The position numbers were made by a program, and so were the translations under genes. From the NCBI GenBank assembly GCA_964594835.1, contig CAZQNA010000002.1, forward strand, positions 128,001 to 192,000: 64,000 bases of DNA. Direction: 5' to 3'. Origin of the DNA: an uncultured Nitrososphaerota archaeon (lineage in GTDB: Archaea > Korarchaeota > Korarchaeia > Korarchaeales > Korarchaeaceae). This document shows, piece by piece, positions 36,825 to 41,900 of this stretch (positions are counted from its first letter, which is position 1; each line of letters begins with the position of its first letter). The notes beneath the pieces are model-generated. The model ran no database searches. It was given only the letters and a program-made list of their open reading frames with translations, and was not told where the DNA came from.

Positions 36825-37540
36825 GCCTCAGGGACATGTGGCTGGAGCTCAGGGCCGAGCTGGAGGGGATGGAGAGGGTCGCGCTGGCCGGATTCTTGGG
36901 CCCGGCGCTCATCCTGGCCTTGGTTGCGATCACCGACCCACTGGCCTTCCTCCTCACACCATTCCCACTGTTTCTGGCCTCTCTGGCCTCTAGAGAGAGC
37001 GACAGGACCGGCCCGGCCATAGCGCTGGGAGCCCTGCTAGGATACCTGCTGCTGACGGCCTTCTCCCTCTCCCCCCTCTACCCTCCATTCTATCGCTGGG
37101 TGAACCGTGGCGCCCCGGCGCCCAAGGTGGAGAGCATCCCCCTCTCCTGCAGGGTCTGCTCCCCATCCCTCTTCGCGCTACTCTGGGCGTTCGCGGCGTA
37201 TATCATAATCGCGCTTGAGGCGGTCCCCCTCCTGGCAGCCTGGGTCGCCCTGTCCGCCTACCCCGCCTATATCGCCAGGTCCAGGTTCAGGCGCGTGCCG
37301 AGGCTCCTGCTCATCATGTACTCCCTGACCCTCCTCGGCAACGCCCTGGCCTGCGCACTCTGCCTCCCCGTGTGGCTCGAGGAGCCCCCTCTCTTCTCGG
37401 CGCTGGCGGCCCTGGATCCCGCCGCCTCCGTCACCCTGGCCGCAGCCTGCCTGTGGAGGGCTAGGAATGGGGGAGGTCAGGACCTGCTGGCGTTCCTGAC
37501 GTTCTACTCGCTGATCGGCACCATAAGGTGGTTGATGTGA
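36812..37540 (+). CDS. paralogous multi-TM membrane protein, copy A
   Basis: Overlaps upstream stop; family motifs SDRxGPAIxLGALLGY, SPLYPP, LSCRxC, SAYPAY...RFRRVPRLL. Confidence 0.8.
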   Translation: MVPLGLRDMWLELRAELEGMERVALAGFLGPALILALVAITDPLAFLLTPFPLFLASLASRESDRTGPAIALGALLGYLLLTAFSLSPLYPPFYRWVNRGAPAPKVESIPLSCRVCSPSLFALLWAFAAYIIIALEAVPLLAAWVALSAYPAYIARSRFRRVPRLLLIMYSLTLLGNALACALCLPVWLEEPPLFSALAALDPAASVTLAAACLWRARNGGGQDLLAFLTFYSLIGTIRWLM

Positions 37541-37793
37541 GCGCCTGGACATTCCTCTCCCGCCGTGGCGAGTCTCTGCGCGATCGACCGCTTTCACGCT
37601 CTGCGCTAGGGAATCTCCGAGGGCCGCGGCGTCGAGAGAGCTTCACACAGCCGCTCACCATCCCTGCGCGCGGCATGTCTGGCTCTGGCATGCGCACAAT
37701 CGACCCCCTCGCGAGTGGACGAGGGAGCGACAGCAGGGCCGCTCGGCGAGCGGAGGTTCACGTGGACCCCGTCATCACGCACCGAACTGGGGG

Positions 37794-38483
37794 GTGGTGC
37801 GGGTGAGATTCGGTGAGGCGTTGGAGGAACTCGCCGAGGATATCAGGGGAGTGAGATTCCTCGTGGTCCTCGCAGGCGCGCTGGGGCCTATACTCTGCGA
37901 CCTGCTCATGAGATGGGCGGCCGAGGTCTCAGGGGCTGGCCCCCCCATCCTGCTCACAGCTCCAGCCCCCATACTCCTCGCATCCCTCCTAGCCCTCGAG
38001 GTCGGCGGAGGGGGCCCCGCCGTGTCCCTCGGAGCCCTGCTGGGCTACTCCTCCCTGGCAGCCCTGAGGCTCCTCCACCCGCGCCTGGGCGGTCCGCCCC
38101 CACTCTGTGGGGCCTGCTCCACCCCCCTGATCTACGCGCTTGCGGGCCCGCCGGGATTCTCGGCCGTGGTCATGTCCCTGGTGCCGGCGTCCGTCGTCTA
38201 CAGGGAGACCTCCGAGGTCCCGAGGCTCCTTCCCCTCATGTACGCTGCGGCCCTGCTGGCCAACTTTGCGACCTGCGCGGCGTGCCTGGCTCACAGGTGG
38301 GAGGCCTACCTGGGAGACTCCTTCCACCCGATCTTCCTCTCCCTCGTGGCCTCAAGCATGGCCCTAGACGTGATCCTGTCGGCGATCTCCCTCCGGAAGG
38401 CGAGGGCCGGGACGGGCGGGGGCAGGCTGCTCCTGGCGGCGCTCACGCTCTACGCGATAGTCGGTAGCCTCGGTTGGGGGTGA
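37794..38483 (+). CDS. paralogous multi-TM membrane protein, copy B (divergent)
   Basis: GPAVSLGALLGY, LCGAC, VPRLL, LANFATCAAC. Confidence 0.75.
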   Translation: MVRVRFGEALEELAEDIRGVRFLVVLAGALGPILCDLLMRWAAEVSGAGPPILLTAPAPILLASLLALEVGGGGPAVSLGALLGYSSLAALRLLHPRLGGPPPLCGACSTPLIYALAGPPGFSAVVMSLVPASVVYRETSEVPRLLPLMYAAALLANFATCAACLAHRWEAYLGDSFHPIFLSLVASSMALDVILSAISLRKARAGTGGGRLLLAALTLYAIVGSLGWG

Positions 38484-38586
38484 CCCTTGGGGATCGACGG
38501 CTCTATCTGGGTGCCCGCACGTGGGGCGATGGGGGAAGGCCCATGAGGCTCTCTACATCCTCTGCCGAGCTGTTGGTGGGGAGACA

Positions 38587-39312
38587 ATGGCCCTAAGCAT
38601 TAGAGAGATGTGGCTCGAGCTCAGGGAAGAGGTCGGCGGCCCCATGGTCTGGGTCGCCCTGGTGGGAGCGATCGGCCCTCTGACGGTGGGTTTAGCGCTT
38701 GGGGAGTCCTCCTGGTGGCTCTTCCCCATCCCCATCCCCCTCGCCGTGGCCTCGGCTGCGGCCAGGGTGAGCGACAGGTCCGGCCCCGCCATATCCCTCG
38801 GAGCCCTCCTCGGCTACCTGCTGCTGATGGCCTTCGCGGCTTCCCCCCTCTACCCTCCCTTCTATCGCTGGGTGACTCGAGGCCTGCCCTCGCCCAGAGT
38901 GGGGAGGATACCCCTGTCCTGCAGGACCTGGCTACCGGCTCTGCTCCTTCTCTCTTGGATCACTCTCCTCGCAATCTACATCCACCTCGTCGTATTCCTG
39001 ATCGAGGCGGCCTGGATCCTCATCTCGGCCTACCCAGCCTACGTGGCCAGGTCCAGGTTCAGGCGCGTCCCCAGGCTCCTGCTCATCATGTACGCCGCCG
39101 TCCTCCTTGCCAACGCGATCGCAACGGCGTCCTGCCTGAGGAGCGGCTGGGTGGAGTATCTGCCGCGAGTTGCTGGGCTGAACTCAGTCGTCGATGGCTT
39201 TCTGGCCCTGGCCTGCCTATGGAAGGCTCTCAGAGGTGGTGGCAGGGATCTCCTTACCTTCCTCACGTTCTACGTCACGCTAGGCTCCCTCCTAACGTGG
39301 TGGTTATGGTAG
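38587..39312 (+). CDS. paralogous multi-TM membrane protein, copy C
   Basis: Same family motifs; ATG 38587. Confidence 0.8.
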   Translation: MALSIREMWLELREEVGGPMVWVALVGAIGPLTVGLALGESSWWLFPIPIPLAVASAAARVSDRSGPAISLGALLGYLLLMAFAASPLYPPFYRWVTRGLPSPRVGRIPLSCRTWLPALLLLSWITLLAIYIHLVVFLIEAAWILISAYPAYVARSRFRRVPRLLLIMYAAVLLANAIATASCLRSGWVEYLPRVAGLNSVVDGFLALACLWKALRGGGRDLLTFLTFYVTLGSLLTWWLW

Positions 39313-40364: not shown

Positions 40365-40374
40365 GGTCAGGGAG

Positions 40375-41124
40375 GTGGTGGCCTTGGGCCTTAGAGATAT
40401 GTGGCTCGAGTTCAGGGCCGAGCTGGAGGGGATGAGGCGGGTCCTGCTGGCCGGAGCCTTGGCCGGCGCCCTGGCCCCCGCGCTCGTCCTCGTCATGGGC
40501 TTCTTCCTGGTCCCTCTCCCCCTCGCCCTGGCCTCGGCCCACTACCGCCGCAGCGACAGGTCAGGCCCCGCGATAGCGCTGGGGGCACTCCTGGGCTACC
40601 TGCTTGTGATCGCCCTCATGGTATCCCCCCTGTACCCCCCCTACTACCGCTGGCTCACCAGGGGCATGCCGGTGCGCGGCGTAGAGAGAATATTCATGTC
40701 CTACAGGGCCTGCTCCCCCTTTCTCTCCGGCCTGTTCGTGACATTCCTCGGCTGGCTGATGTACATGGGCGACTTTGCCTCGCCGTCCTTTCTGACACTC
40801 GTCCCGATCGCCTGGGTCACCTTGTCCGCCTACCCCGCCTATATCGCCAGGTCCAGGTTCAGACGAGTGCCGAGGCTGCTCCTCATCATGTACTCCCTCG
40901 CCCTCCTCGCCAACGCCCTGGCCTGCGCACTCTGCCTCCCCGTGTGGCTCGAGGAGCCCCCTCTCTTCTCGGCGCTGGCGGCCCTGGATCCCGCCGCCTC
41001 CGTCACCCTGGCCGCAGCCTGCCTGTGGAGGGCTAGGAGGGGAGGAGGTCAGAACCTGCTGGCGTTCCTTACGTTCCTCGCCCTGTTGGGGACCCCGAGG
41101 TGTTGGTGGTGGTGGTCGCTCTAG
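40375..41124 (+). CDS. paralogous multi-TM membrane protein, copy E (mosaic)
   Basis: Shares identical DNA blocks with copies D, F and A. Confidence 0.8.
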   Translation: MVALGLRDMWLEFRAELEGMRRVLLAGALAGALAPALVLVMGFFLVPLPLALASAHYRRSDRSGPAIALGALLGYLLVIALMVSPLYPPYYRWLTRGMPVRGVERIFMSYRACSPFLSGLFVTFLGWLMYMGDFASPSFLTLVPIAWVTLSAYPAYIARSRFRRVPRLLLIMYSLALLANALACALCLPVWLEEPPLFSALAALDPAASVTLAAACLWRARRGGGQNLLAFLTFLALLGTPRCWWWWSL

Positions 41125-41186
41125 ACTCCCGAATGTCACCGGAGTTCCCCTTGAGAGTGAGGGGAGGTGGTGTAAGCATCAGAGAG

Positions 41187-41900
41187 ATGTGGCACGAGCT
41201 CAGGGAAGAGGTCGGCGGCCCCACGATCTGGGTGGTCTTCGCGGGGGCGCTTGGACCCCTAGCGGTGGGCCTGGCGCTGGGCATGTCCTTTTGGCTGGGC
41301 ATCCCCCTTTCCCCTCTCCCCCTCGCCGTGGCCTCGGCCGCTGCCAGGGTGAGCGACAGGTCTGGCCCGGCCATATCTTTGGGCGCCCTGCTGGGCTACC
41401 TGCTTGTGATCGCCCTCATGGCCTCTCCCCTCTACCCTCCTCTGTACGAGTGGGCGGTGAGCGGCTATCAGCTAGCCCCTTCCGTGAGGGGAGTTCCTCT
41501 CTCCTGCAGGGCCTGCTCCCCACCGCCATTTTTCTTCCCCATGCTGAGCCTCCTGTTGGCGTATGCTTGCTCTTACCTCGGGCTGCTTCTAGCTGCTGCC
41601 TGGCTGCTCGTATCATCCTATCCTGCGTATGTCGCCAGATTCAGGTTCAGGCGCGTGCCCAGGCTTCTCTTGATAGCGTACGCATCGGCCCTCGCAATAG
41701 ACTCCTGTCTCTCAGCATCTTGCGCCTCAACCGGATGGATGAGATACGCCCCATGGCTCTTGGCCGTGAGTTCAGCTCTCGATGCTACGCTGGCCGTAGC
41801 CTGCCTATGGAAGGCTCGGAAGGGAGGCGGCAGGGATCTCCTAACCTTCCTCACGTTCTACCTCCTCTCAGGGAGCGTGCTCCGCTACTGGTGGTGGTGA
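41187..41900 (+). CDS. paralogous multi-TM membrane protein, copy F
   Basis: N-terminus like copy C; same motifs; start uncertain. Confidence 0.78.
   Translation: MWHELREEVGGPTIWVVFAGALGPLAVGLALGMSFWLGIPLSPLPLAVASAAARVSDRSGPAISLGALLGYLLVIALMASPLYPPLYEWAVSGYQLAPSVRGVPLSCRACSPPPFFFPMLSLLLAYACSYLGLLLAAAWLLVSSYPAYVARFRFRRVPRLLLIAYASALAIDSCLSASCASTGWMRYAPWLLAVSSALDATLAVACLWKARKGGGRDLLTFLTFYLLSGSVLRYWWW

What the first reader, a model, noticed from the sequence alone, without database searches (positions are those of the whole stretch)
37339..41420. Copy E is a patchwork of three other paralogues
Seen: E 40439-40514 = D 39709-39784 (76 bp identical); E 40591-40620 = F 41391-41420 (30 bp); E 40911-41038 = A 37339-37466 (128 bp). 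The intervening parts are unique. C and F share an N-terminal type, as do A, D, E and G. Inference: ongoing segmental gene conversion creating new specificities.
Basis: seen in the sequence. Interest (0 to 1): 0.7.

Follow-up and report, generated by a model that had tools for sequence, protein, structure and literature searches.

The report
Cassette shuffling among tandem archaeal membrane genes
Six neighbouring copies of an unknown membrane-protein gene in an uncultured hot-vent archaeon have swapped short stretches with one another, a well-known way of reshuffling gene families seen here in a family nobody has described.

Summary
The three identical blocks are real and sit at the stated coordinates: 128 bp E=A, 76 bp E=D, and 31 bp (not 30) E=F. 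All three are non-random by permutation, and tree tests show conflicting histories along the gene. The genes form a tandem array, A to F plus fragment G, of ~240-aa multi-pass membrane proteins. They match no known family and lie behind an 832-aa secreted protein in a Korarchaeota genome assembled from a metagenome. Each protein alternates conserved linkers with three variable transmembrane modules. The exchanged tracts carry whole modules and end in the linkers.

Homologues from other samples are different mosaics, and array content differs between populations. Misassembly is unlikely but not excluded, because the only read evidence was k=31 contigs that cannot bridge the blocks.

Exchange is real and recent, but E is not simply the recipient: outgroups indicate that D took its first module from E. 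"New specificities" is untested because the function is unknown.

This is a new example of a known mechanism, recombination within a tandem paralogue cluster.

The parts
34326..36824 (+). 'BIG': 832-aa secreted protein with a signal-peptide-like N-terminus. Its stop overlaps the start of A. It is the head gene of the unit.
   Evidence: One search gives the ORF. One search found only sub-threshold Pfam hits (DUF4350, ABC_transp_aux, GIFT, ThuA, NPP1); only 5 proteins in 5.8e9, and two of them report the same longest-contig lengths as array homologues (12093 and 22274).
36812..37540 (+). Paralogue A (242 aa), module types a-a-a.
37794..38483 (+). Paralogue B (229 aa), divergent (about 50% nt identity to the others). 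It takes no part in the exchanges.
   Evidence: In one search its longest matching runs are 5-8 sites and not significant. Its orthologue on L014 is 94.8% identical in protein, with dN/dS 0.25.
38584..39312 (+). Paralogue C (the ORF is open from 38521), module types c-c-c.
   Evidence: Its orthologue on L016 is 90% identical in protein.
39313..39657 (+). Duplicated tail of BIG (114-aa open frame). 39356-39647 matches 36526-36817 at 85%.
   Evidence: family D8; 75% protein identity to BIG 729-830.
39645..40364 (+). Paralogue D (239 aa), module types d-d-d. Its first module was probably taken from E.
40375..41124 (+). Paralogue E (249 aa; the ORF is open from 40336), module types d-e-a. This is the mosaic copy.
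41172..41900 (+). Paralogue F (the ORF is open from 41100), module types c'-f-f.
   Evidence: L017 is 97.5% identical in nt from 41394 onward.
41911..42024 (+). Fragment G (37 aa). It has an A/D/E-type N-terminus, and homology ends at the junction between the first linker (C0) and the first variable module (V1).
   Evidence: (family D9).
40439..40514 (+). 76-bp tract identical to D 39709-39784. It encodes E residues 22-47, the first variable transmembrane module.
39709..39784 (+). The partner of the 76-bp tract, in D.
40591..40621 (+). 31-bp tract identical to F 41391-41421. It encodes E residues 73-83, inside conserved linker C1.
41391..41421 (+). The partner of the 31-bp tract, in F.
40810..41070 (+). 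A-like 3' segment of E. There are 13 mismatches to A over 40810-41053, against roughly 55 to D.
   Evidence: mismatch lists; family D6: 300 nt at 91%.
40911..41038 (+). 128-bp tract identical to A 37339-37466. It encodes E residues 179-222, the third variable module.
37339..37466 (+). The partner of the 128-bp tract, in A.
40823..40862 (+). 40-bp tract identical to A 37251-37290. It is separated from the 128-bp tract by 48 nt that carry 7 E-specific differences.

Best explanation
The locus is a tandem array of paralogous genes for a lineage-restricted multi-pass membrane protein. The genes appear to be co-transcribed behind a secreted 832-aa protein.

Each gene alternates four conserved segments with three variable transmembrane modules. 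In E residues these are C0 1-21, C1 56-111, C2 146-177 and C3 213-236, and V1 22-55, V2 112-145 and V3 178-212.

The conserved segments supply the homology for non-allelic homologous recombination within the array. This takes two forms: short-patch gene conversion (or double crossover) that moves whole variable modules between copies, and unequal crossover that adds or removes copies.

E has a D-related backbone. It shares V1 with D (a recent exchange, most likely E to D) and V3 plus flanks with A (recent, direction unknown). It also shares an 11-codon patch in C1 with F (older).

Shown: the tracts, their significance, conflicting phylogenies along the gene, different mosaics and array contents in other populations, and purifying selection on each copy.

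Inferred: the recombination mechanism, the direction of transfer, and any functional consequence. My guess at function (about 25%) is that these are membrane partners, either anchors or protective partners, of the secreted protein, with specificity set by the variable helices.
For: - Tracts: exact tracts at the stated places, each present exactly twice in the genome.
- Significance: permutation p 0.0005 global for A-E and D-E. E-F p 2e-5 within its own linker. PHI p 0.001.
- Conflicting trees (AU tests): in the 5' part the (A,E) clade is rejected at p 1.7e-8; in the 3' part (D,E) is rejected at p 6.3e-6.
- Tract location: the tracts lie where the other copies are most different (42-60% identity in the sliding window), and synonymous sites are identical too (A-E V3 pS 0.00).
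- Module structure: module and linker boundaries, with tract ends falling in the linkers.
- Mosaics elsewhere: P0004, P0005 and L018 gene 1 are a-d-d, and P0011 is c-f-f.
- Array differences between populations: on L014, B is followed directly by an E orthologue. Runs X5 and X8 show in-register F/C and D/E hybrid joints and a C-to-A adjacency.
- Duplicated BIG tails lie before D, before C (a 55-nt remnant), and on L016 and L018.
- Recency: L014's E orthologue differs at 7/76 sites in the block where E = D.
- The copies are real genes: orthologue dN/dS is 0.19-0.36 for A, B, C and E (F 0.47 on 7 differences).
- Assembly: contigs from two studies match with no differences and cross the block edges. 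The contig containing the A copies of the blocks has depth 27.1 against flanks of 18.1-18.8. My own arithmetic gives an expected 27.4 if the blocks are two-copy.
Against: - No read or contig bridges the 76- or 128-bp blocks. Logan contigs are built at k=31 and break there, and nothing was laid on 40853-41008.
- The raw-run global p for the E-F tract is 0.31.
- The excess divergence of L014's E in the D block is not significant (7/76 versus 14/326, Fisher p 0.09).
- The clades tested were named after the similarity plots had been seen.
- Linker synonymous divergence is only modestly lower than in the modules (pS 0.43-0.53 versus 0.56-0.70), so exchange is sporadic rather than pervasive homogenisation.
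- Conversion cannot be told apart from repeated reciprocal crossover using one genome.
- Function is unknown. There is no hit in Pfam, NCBIfam, PADLOC or PHROGs, and both structure models were poor.
Confidence: 0.78

Rival explanations
1. The mosaic arose by reciprocal events or by import, not by intragenomic conversion. Either successive unequal crossovers between sister chromosomes made hybrid genes, or homologous recombination with DNA from a related strain brought in a differently shuffled array.
For: Copy number and order differ between populations (B-E adjacency on L014; hybrid joints in X5 and X8). The S. aureus lpl model explains 'apparent conversion' by repeated crossovers and by inter-strain recombination (PMC2568036, section 19 read). 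Strains 90-99% alike co-occur in public runs.
Against: The perfect tracts are bounded on both sides by roughly 80%-identical sequence: 13/64 and 14/67 mismatches beside the D block, and a 48-nt stretch with 7 E-specific differences between the two A-identical blocks. That calls for double switches over less than 130 bp. The donor-like sequence is 100% identical to a copy resident in the same genome, which an imported allele need not be.
Confidence: 0.13
2. Assembly artefact: the metagenome assembler stitched strain variants or paralogues together, so the identical blocks in E are not in any one genome.
For: The genome was assembled from a metagenome (24 contigs, contamination 2.78%). Related strains exist. 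No contig bridges the blocks, and there is a hole at 40853-41008.
Against: In X1, 13 of 13 laid contigs are at least 99% alike with no alternative letters, so no second version of E's blocks is present. X1 and X2 come from different studies and agree exactly. Contigs cross the block edges by 30 nt (39940-40468, 41009-41420, 40592-40852), and depth over the A copies fits two copies (all). An E-specific 48-nt stretch sits between two A-identical blocks, which a jump into A would not produce. With direct repeats and equal depth, the assembled order is the only linear path that uses all segments (inference). L014 independently shows an E orthologue with the D-type and F-type segments.
Confidence: 0.06
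3. The identical blocks reflect selection on the nucleotide sequence (an embedded RNA or regulatory element) or convergent protein-level constraint, without any exchange.
For: The 31-bp E/F block lies in a conserved linker.
Against: The long blocks lie in the least conserved parts of the family. There is no Rfam match in the window. The orthologue L014 varies at 7/76 sites inside the block. Within its linker, E agrees with F at only 22 of 77 polymorphic sites, and 13 of those are consecutive.
Confidence: 0.03

Closest known systems
Staphylococcus aureus lpl (lipoprotein-like) tandem paralogue cluster on the nuSa-alpha island (Tsuru and Kobayashi 2008, PMC2568036; abstract and section 19 read)
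   Same: Same-orientation tandem paralogues on a variable island. Conserved intragenic sequence flanked by variable regions serves as the recombination site. Variable regions within one ORF have incongruent phylogenies. Strains differ by deletion, duplication and apparent conversion.
   Different: Here the genes encode multi-pass membrane proteins of an undescribed archaeal family, not lipoproteins. There are three variable modules and four conserved segments rather than one central conserved region. Whether the '3' variable, intergenic, 5' variable' unit is conserved was not tested. Only one complete array is available.
Gene conversion and concerted evolution between archaeal or prokaryotic paralogues, for example duplicated mtrA in methanogens (PMC4632066) and the prokaryote-wide survey (PMC6053082); both seen as search listing and abstract only
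   Same: Non-allelic exchange between paralogues in one archaeal genome, detected by paralogues being more alike than orthologues over part of their length.
   Different: Those cases homogenise two copies over long periods. Here short tracts move between diverged copies (pS about 0.5) and produce new module combinations rather than uniformity.
Polymorphic toxin / immunity loci with orphan modules (CDI, Rhs); recalled from general knowledge, no paper read
   Same: A large secreted protein is followed by small genes. A fragment of the large gene's 3' end recurs downstream, each time followed by another small gene. Content is variable between strains.
   Different: The repeated tail is the same type as BIG's own tail (75% protein identity), not an alternative toxin tip. 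No toxin or immunity family was detected. The small genes are homologous to each other.
Cassette-based antigenic variation (Neisseria pilE/pilS, Borrelia vlsE); recalled, no paper read
   Same: Segmental, non-reciprocal transfer between tandem homologous cassettes creates mosaics in a surface or membrane protein.
   Different: All six copies are complete ORFs with start codons, and A, B, C, E and F were shown to be under purifying selection. There is no single expression site with silent partial cassettes. The variable parts are hydrophobic helices, not exposed loops.

Membership tests
Tandem paralogue cluster diversified by homologous recombination at conserved intragenic segments (lpl-type model) | Paralogues in tandem, same orientation, on a strain-variable island | tested here: met
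   Six genes plus a fragment on the + strand. The array is absent at the syntenic site of G009 and reduced in G008.
Tandem paralogue cluster diversified by homologous recombination at conserved intragenic segments (lpl-type model) | Conserved intragenic segment(s) flanked by variable regions, with breakpoints in the conserved segments | tested here: met
   Conservation profile and module table. Repeat families D4, D5 and D10 mark the linkers. Tract ends and the X8 joints fall in or beside the linkers.
Tandem paralogue cluster diversified by homologous recombination at conserved intragenic segments (lpl-type model) | Incongruent phylogenies of variable regions within one ORF | tested here: met
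   AU tests p 1.7e-8, 6.3e-6, 4.6e-4 and 1.5e-8. The clades were named after inspection.
Tandem paralogue cluster diversified by homologous recombination at conserved intragenic segments (lpl-type model) | [quoted passage not shown] | not tested
   Only one full array and short contigs from elsewhere were available. The recurring 'BIG tail + gene start' unit is suggestive only.
Polymorphic toxin / immunity locus with orphan modules | Recognisable toxin domain, with alternative C-terminal tips in the orphans | tested here: not met
   There are no toxin families. The NPP1 hit is below cut-off (17 bits against 21). The orphan tail is the same type as BIG's own tail.
Polymorphic toxin / immunity locus with orphan modules | The downstream small protein binds or neutralises the upstream protein | not testable with these tools
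   No complex prediction was run. The models of both partners were poor (pLDDT 57 and 38).
Expression-site / silent-cassette antigenic variation | One expressed copy plus promoterless, incomplete silent cassettes | tested here: not met
   All six copies are full-length ORFs, each with a GTG start and, for A, C, D, E and F, a shared GGGAGG motif just upstream. Orthologue dN/dS is 0.19-0.47 for A, B, C, E and F. Only G and the BIG tail are fragments.
Any curated protein family (Pfam, NCBIfam, PADLOC, PHROGs) or solved fold | Significant profile or fold match for A-F | tested here: not met
   0 families for the array proteins queried: all six in Pfam, PADLOC and PHROGs; A, B, C and E in NCBIfam. 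Foldseek against PDB gave nothing with E <= 0.001, on a low-confidence model. The best atlas score was 0.77, below the useful range.

The most novel reading that the evidence does not exclude
BIG plus the array could be a previously unknown archaeal recognition system. In this reading the secreted 832-aa protein works with a set of membrane partners whose specificity lies in three swappable transmembrane modules, and recombination inside the array continually produces new partner combinations. The purpose might be self/non-self discrimination, protection against a related secreted protein from competitors, or evasion of a virus that docks on these proteins. That would make it a recombination-driven diversity generator in Korarchaeota, acting on membrane-embedded helices rather than exposed loops.
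Probability: 0.15. Interest if true: 0.75.

Novelty: new member of a known kind. Interest (0 to 1): 0.4.

Why it matters
Non-allelic recombination within tandem paralogue clusters is established in bacteria and, for a few gene pairs, in archaea. This locus adds a clear, statistically solid case in an uncultured Korarchaeota lineage.

The family is extremely narrow. It has 11 proteins in 5.8 billion (4 of them from the window's own contig) and 8 representative clusters in 1.84 billion. It always appears beside an equally narrow secreted protein.

The module structure gives a concrete hypothesis for where specificity lies and which chimeras nature has already made. That is useful if anyone tries to work out what this operon does.

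It also shows that a 'recipient' picked by eye can be the donor once orthologues are consulted.

Tried and rejected
- **Related-locus search with A1:** searches failed because alignment A1 (with B and G) had no conserved stretch. I repeated them with A2.
- **Structure of E:** pLDDT 57. Foldseek against PDB gave nothing with E <= 0.001, so the result was not used.
- **Structure of BIG:** a 5-sequence alignment gave pLDDT 38. It was unusable and no fold search was run.
- **Protein atlas:** best score 0.77, recognition 1595, a lead of no value.
- **BIG against solved structures:** only IFT52/GIFT at E 0.07.
- **Profile libraries:** NCBIfam, PADLOC and PHROGs gave nothing for the array. The GldG hit for BIG scored 17.5 bits against a cut-off of 390.
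- **Rfam:** no match in the window.
- **Earlier findings of this scan:** none near the locus.
- **Logan contigs:** none was laid on 40853-41008 in X1 or X2, and no contig bridges the 76- or 128-bp blocks. This is a hole, not evidence either way.
- **Weak joints:** X5 37545->39562 (side 28) and X8 39886->40625 (side 22) are short-sided and only suggestive.
- **E and F co-varying across populations:** L017's F is identical to the window's F in the block, while L014's E has 2 private changes, so this gave no signal.
- **Direction of the A/E exchange:** the 3'-part tree leaves the A orthologue L015 unresolved (support 45/34), and L014 ends before V3.
- **Wholesale homogenisation of linkers:** rejected. 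pS there is 0.43-0.53.
- **Simple duplication of A-B-C into D-E-F:** considered and rejected. E is only about 50% identical to B, and on L014 B is followed directly by E.

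
Full report
**What is there**

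Window 34326-42024 (+ strand) holds an 832-aa gene for a secreted protein, here called BIG (34326-36824). Six paralogous genes of about 240 codons follow it:
- A 36812-37540
- B 37794-38483
- C 38584-39312
- D 39645-40364
- E 40375-41124
- F 41172-41900

A 37-aa N-terminal fragment, G, lies at 41911-42024. A 114-codon duplicate of BIG's own 3' tail sits between C and D (39313-39657; 39356-39647 matches 36526-36817 at 85%). A 55-nt remnant of the same tail precedes C.

The window is G000:C2:128001-192000 of a 1.82-Mb, 24-contig assembly (completeness 97.4%, contamination 2.8%). One homologue carries the source name 'Candidatus Korarchaeota archaeon'.

**Check of the observation**

- All three blocks are exact at the stated coordinates. 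The E/F block is 31 bp, not 30, and there is a further 40-bp A=E block (37251-37290 = 40823-40862).
- The 128-bp and 76-bp blocks each occur exactly twice in the assembly.
- Whole-gene nucleotide identities of E are 75.9% to A, 76.1% to D, 62.1% to C, 60.1% to F and 49.7% to B.
- A sliding window shows E is D-like (93-100%) at 40420-40514. It is closest to F (87%) at 40582-40612, D-like again (78-88%) at 40759-40800, and A-like (87-100%) from 40804 to about 41040.
- I permuted the 401 polymorphic sites of A, C, D, E and F (2000 permutations). The A-E run of 80 sites and the D-E run of 49 sites each gave global p 0.0005. PHI gave p 0.001.
- The E-F run of 13 sites gave global p 0.31 by raw run length. 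Its pairwise p is 2.2e-4. Confined to its own conserved linker it is 2e-5: E and F agree at only 22 of 77 polymorphic sites there, and 13 of those are consecutive.
- AU tests on three partitions reject (A,E) in the 5' part (p 1.7e-8) and the middle (p 3.4e-4), and reject (D,E) in the 3' part (p 6.3e-6). I named these clades after seeing the plots.
- The long blocks lie where other copies are only 42-60% alike, and synonymous sites are identical too. Protein-level constraint therefore does not explain them.

**Anatomy**

- A hydropathy and conservation profile of 12 family members (B left out) splits the protein into conserved segments and variable hydrophobic modules. The conserved segments are C0 1-21, C1 56-111, C2 146-177 and C3 213-236. 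The variable modules are V1 22-55, V2 112-145 and V3 178-212, all in E residues.
- The 76-bp tract encodes residues 22-47 (V1). The 128-bp tract encodes 179-222 (V3). The 31-bp tract encodes 73-83, inside C1.
- Module-by-module identities give discrete types. A is a-a-a, D is d-d-d, E is d-e-a, C is c-c-c and F is c'-f-f.
- Between paralogues, pooled pN/pS is 0.83 in V2, 0.68 in V3 and 0.61 in V1, against 0.32-0.38 in linkers C1-C3 (0.56 in C0). Linker pS (0.43-0.53) is only a little below module pS (0.56-0.70). The copies are therefore old and exchange is sporadic.

**Evidence from elsewhere**

- The family is tiny. There are 11 proteins with E <= 0.001 among 5.77 billion, 4 of them from the window's own contig. 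There are 8 representative clusters among 1.84 billion.
- 2 of 43 genomes of the phylum have it, counting G000, and 1 of 4 other genomes of the genus.
- BIG is equally narrow, with 5 proteins. BIG proteins and array proteins report the same longest-contig lengths (12093 for P0027 and P0004; 22274 for P0030 and P0008), from which I infer shared contigs.
- L015 and L018 show the BIG tail directly followed by an array gene.
- At the syntenic site of G009 (same genus) there is only a BIG remnant and no array.

Homologues from other samples are different mosaics:
- P0004, P0005 and L018 gene 1 are a-d-d.
- P0011 is c-f-f.
- P0008 is c-c-c.

Array content also differs between populations:
- On L014, the A tail and B are followed directly by an E orthologue (93% over 165 residues), with no C, tail or D.
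- L016 has C, then the tail, then a truncated gene.
- Runs X5 and X8 (a third study, strains 90-99% alike) show in-register joints F 41437 -> C 38891 and D 39886 -> E 40625 (the latter with side 22). They also show C 39303 -> A 36796.
- Orthologue pairs are under purifying selection: dN/dS is 0.36 for A, 0.25 for B, 0.24 for C, 0.19 for E and 0.47 for F (F on only 7 differences).

**Timing and direction**

- L014's E shares E's 'unique' centre (4/139 differences), the D-type V1 and the F-type patch (29/31). These features therefore predate the split of the two populations.
- In the 76-bp block L014's E differs from both E and D of the window at 7/76 sites, while E and D are identical. The identity is therefore recent.
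- The excess over the rest of the gene (14/326) is not significant (Fisher p 0.09).
- P0004 is 96-100% identical to the window's D in V2, C2, V3 and C3, but only 49% identical in V1, where it is a-type.
- The more distant D-type orthologues P0005 and L018 gene 1 are also a-type in V1.
- In the 5' part the AU test rejects D + L018 gene 1 (p 4.6e-4). In the 3' part they are 100/100 sisters.
- The most parsimonious reading is that the window's D recently received V1 from E. On this tract E is the donor, not the patchwork recipient.
- The direction of the A/E and E/F exchanges is open. L014 ends before V3, and the A orthologue L015 is unresolved in the 3' tree.

**Is it an assembly artefact?**

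- Logan contigs (k=31) of X1 and X2, which come from two studies (one may be the source sample), match the array with no differences. In X1, 13 of 13 laid contigs are at least 99% alike and no alternative letters are reported.
- Contigs cross the block edges: 39940-40468, 39755-40468, 40592-40852 and 41009-41420.
- The contig over the A copies of the blocks (37251-37504) has depth 27.1, against flanks of 18.1-18.8. By my arithmetic, two-copy blocks predict 27.4.
- A 48-nt stretch with 7 E-specific differences lies between the two A-identical blocks. A jump into A would not produce that.
- No contig bridges the blocks, however, and 40853-41008 has no laid contig. Read-level proof is therefore missing. 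I put misassembly at about 6%.

**Mechanism**

The best-supported explanation is non-allelic homologous recombination within the array, initiated in the conserved segments. Short-patch conversion (or double crossover) moves variable modules between copies. Unequal crossover changes copy number and leaves duplicated BIG tails and the G fragment behind. B, at about 50% identity, takes no part, as expected if homology is required.

This matches the model proposed for the S. aureus lpl cluster (PMC2568036; abstract and section 19 read). Gene conversion between archaeal paralogues is also in print (PMC4632066 and PMC6053082; listing and abstract only).

A search for 'Korarchaeota' with 'gene conversion' found 16 papers. 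The one about Korarchaeota genomes mentions only GC-biased conversion (passages read). A third search on archaea, tandem paralogues, membrane proteins and mosaics listed no description of this family among its 12 top hits.

**Function**

No family, fold or defence model matches A-F. The genes abut or overlap, and BIG's stop overlaps A's start. BIG and array genes occur together wherever context is visible. I therefore guess, at about 25%, that the membrane proteins are partners of BIG and that the variable helices set pairing. The claim that exchange creates 'new specificities' remains an inference.

**Verdict**

This is a clean new example of a known mechanism, in an undescribed archaeal gene family.

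Noticed in passing
window 42188-42631 (+) and 42738-43100 (+): A HepT-like ribonuclease (Pfam E 7e-20) and a Pol-beta-type nucleotidyltransferase (MNT-like, E 7.7e-7) lie immediately downstream of the array. This looks like a HepT/MNT toxin-antitoxin pair. L017 carries both at 99% and 96% protein identity.
   Followed up: partly
window 48433-57012 (+): A 2859-aa ORF with 11 DUF11 repeats plus DUF7507, CARDB and related Ig-like domains: a giant surface protein.
   Followed up: no
window 34326-41900: BIG and the array genes have lower third-position GC (0.73-0.86) than the flanking housekeeping genes (0.87-0.93). This hints at a different history or expression level for the island.
   Followed up: no
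L020 (G009:C5:61622-65374), positions 1465-2523: At the syntenic site of a congeneric genome, a 352-aa ORF joins an unrelated N-terminus to BIG residues of about 580-831 (70% identity). It abuts the 123-aa membrane gene next to the aldehyde:ferredoxin oxidoreductase. The array and the HepT/MNT pair are absent.
   Followed up: partly
window 35364-35744 (BIG residues 347-473): A sub-threshold NPP1 (necrosis-inducing protein) Pfam hit (E 0.0066, 17 bits against a cut-off of 21). The invariant 'HEHEWE' stretch recalls, from memory only, the GHRHDWE motif of NLP proteins. This was not tested further.
   Followed up: no
window 40693-40719 (E), 38900-38925 (C), and the same alignment columns in A, D and F: The conserved loop motif P-L-S-C-R-x-C-S-P is a CxxC in A, D, F and B. 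E has Tyr for the first Cys and C has Trp for the second (family D12, 7).
   Followed up: no
L016 1106-1323: After C and the BIG-tail fragment, the next gene on this metagenome contig keeps about 33 N-terminal residues. It then jumps to the segment around residues 137-180, apparently an internal deletion of about 300 nt.
   Followed up: partly
window 23927-26491 (-): Two ABC ATPase genes and a CbiQ-type transmembrane gene, an ECF/cobalt-type transporter operon. A MASE1-like membrane protein lies at 26558-27169.
   Followed up: no
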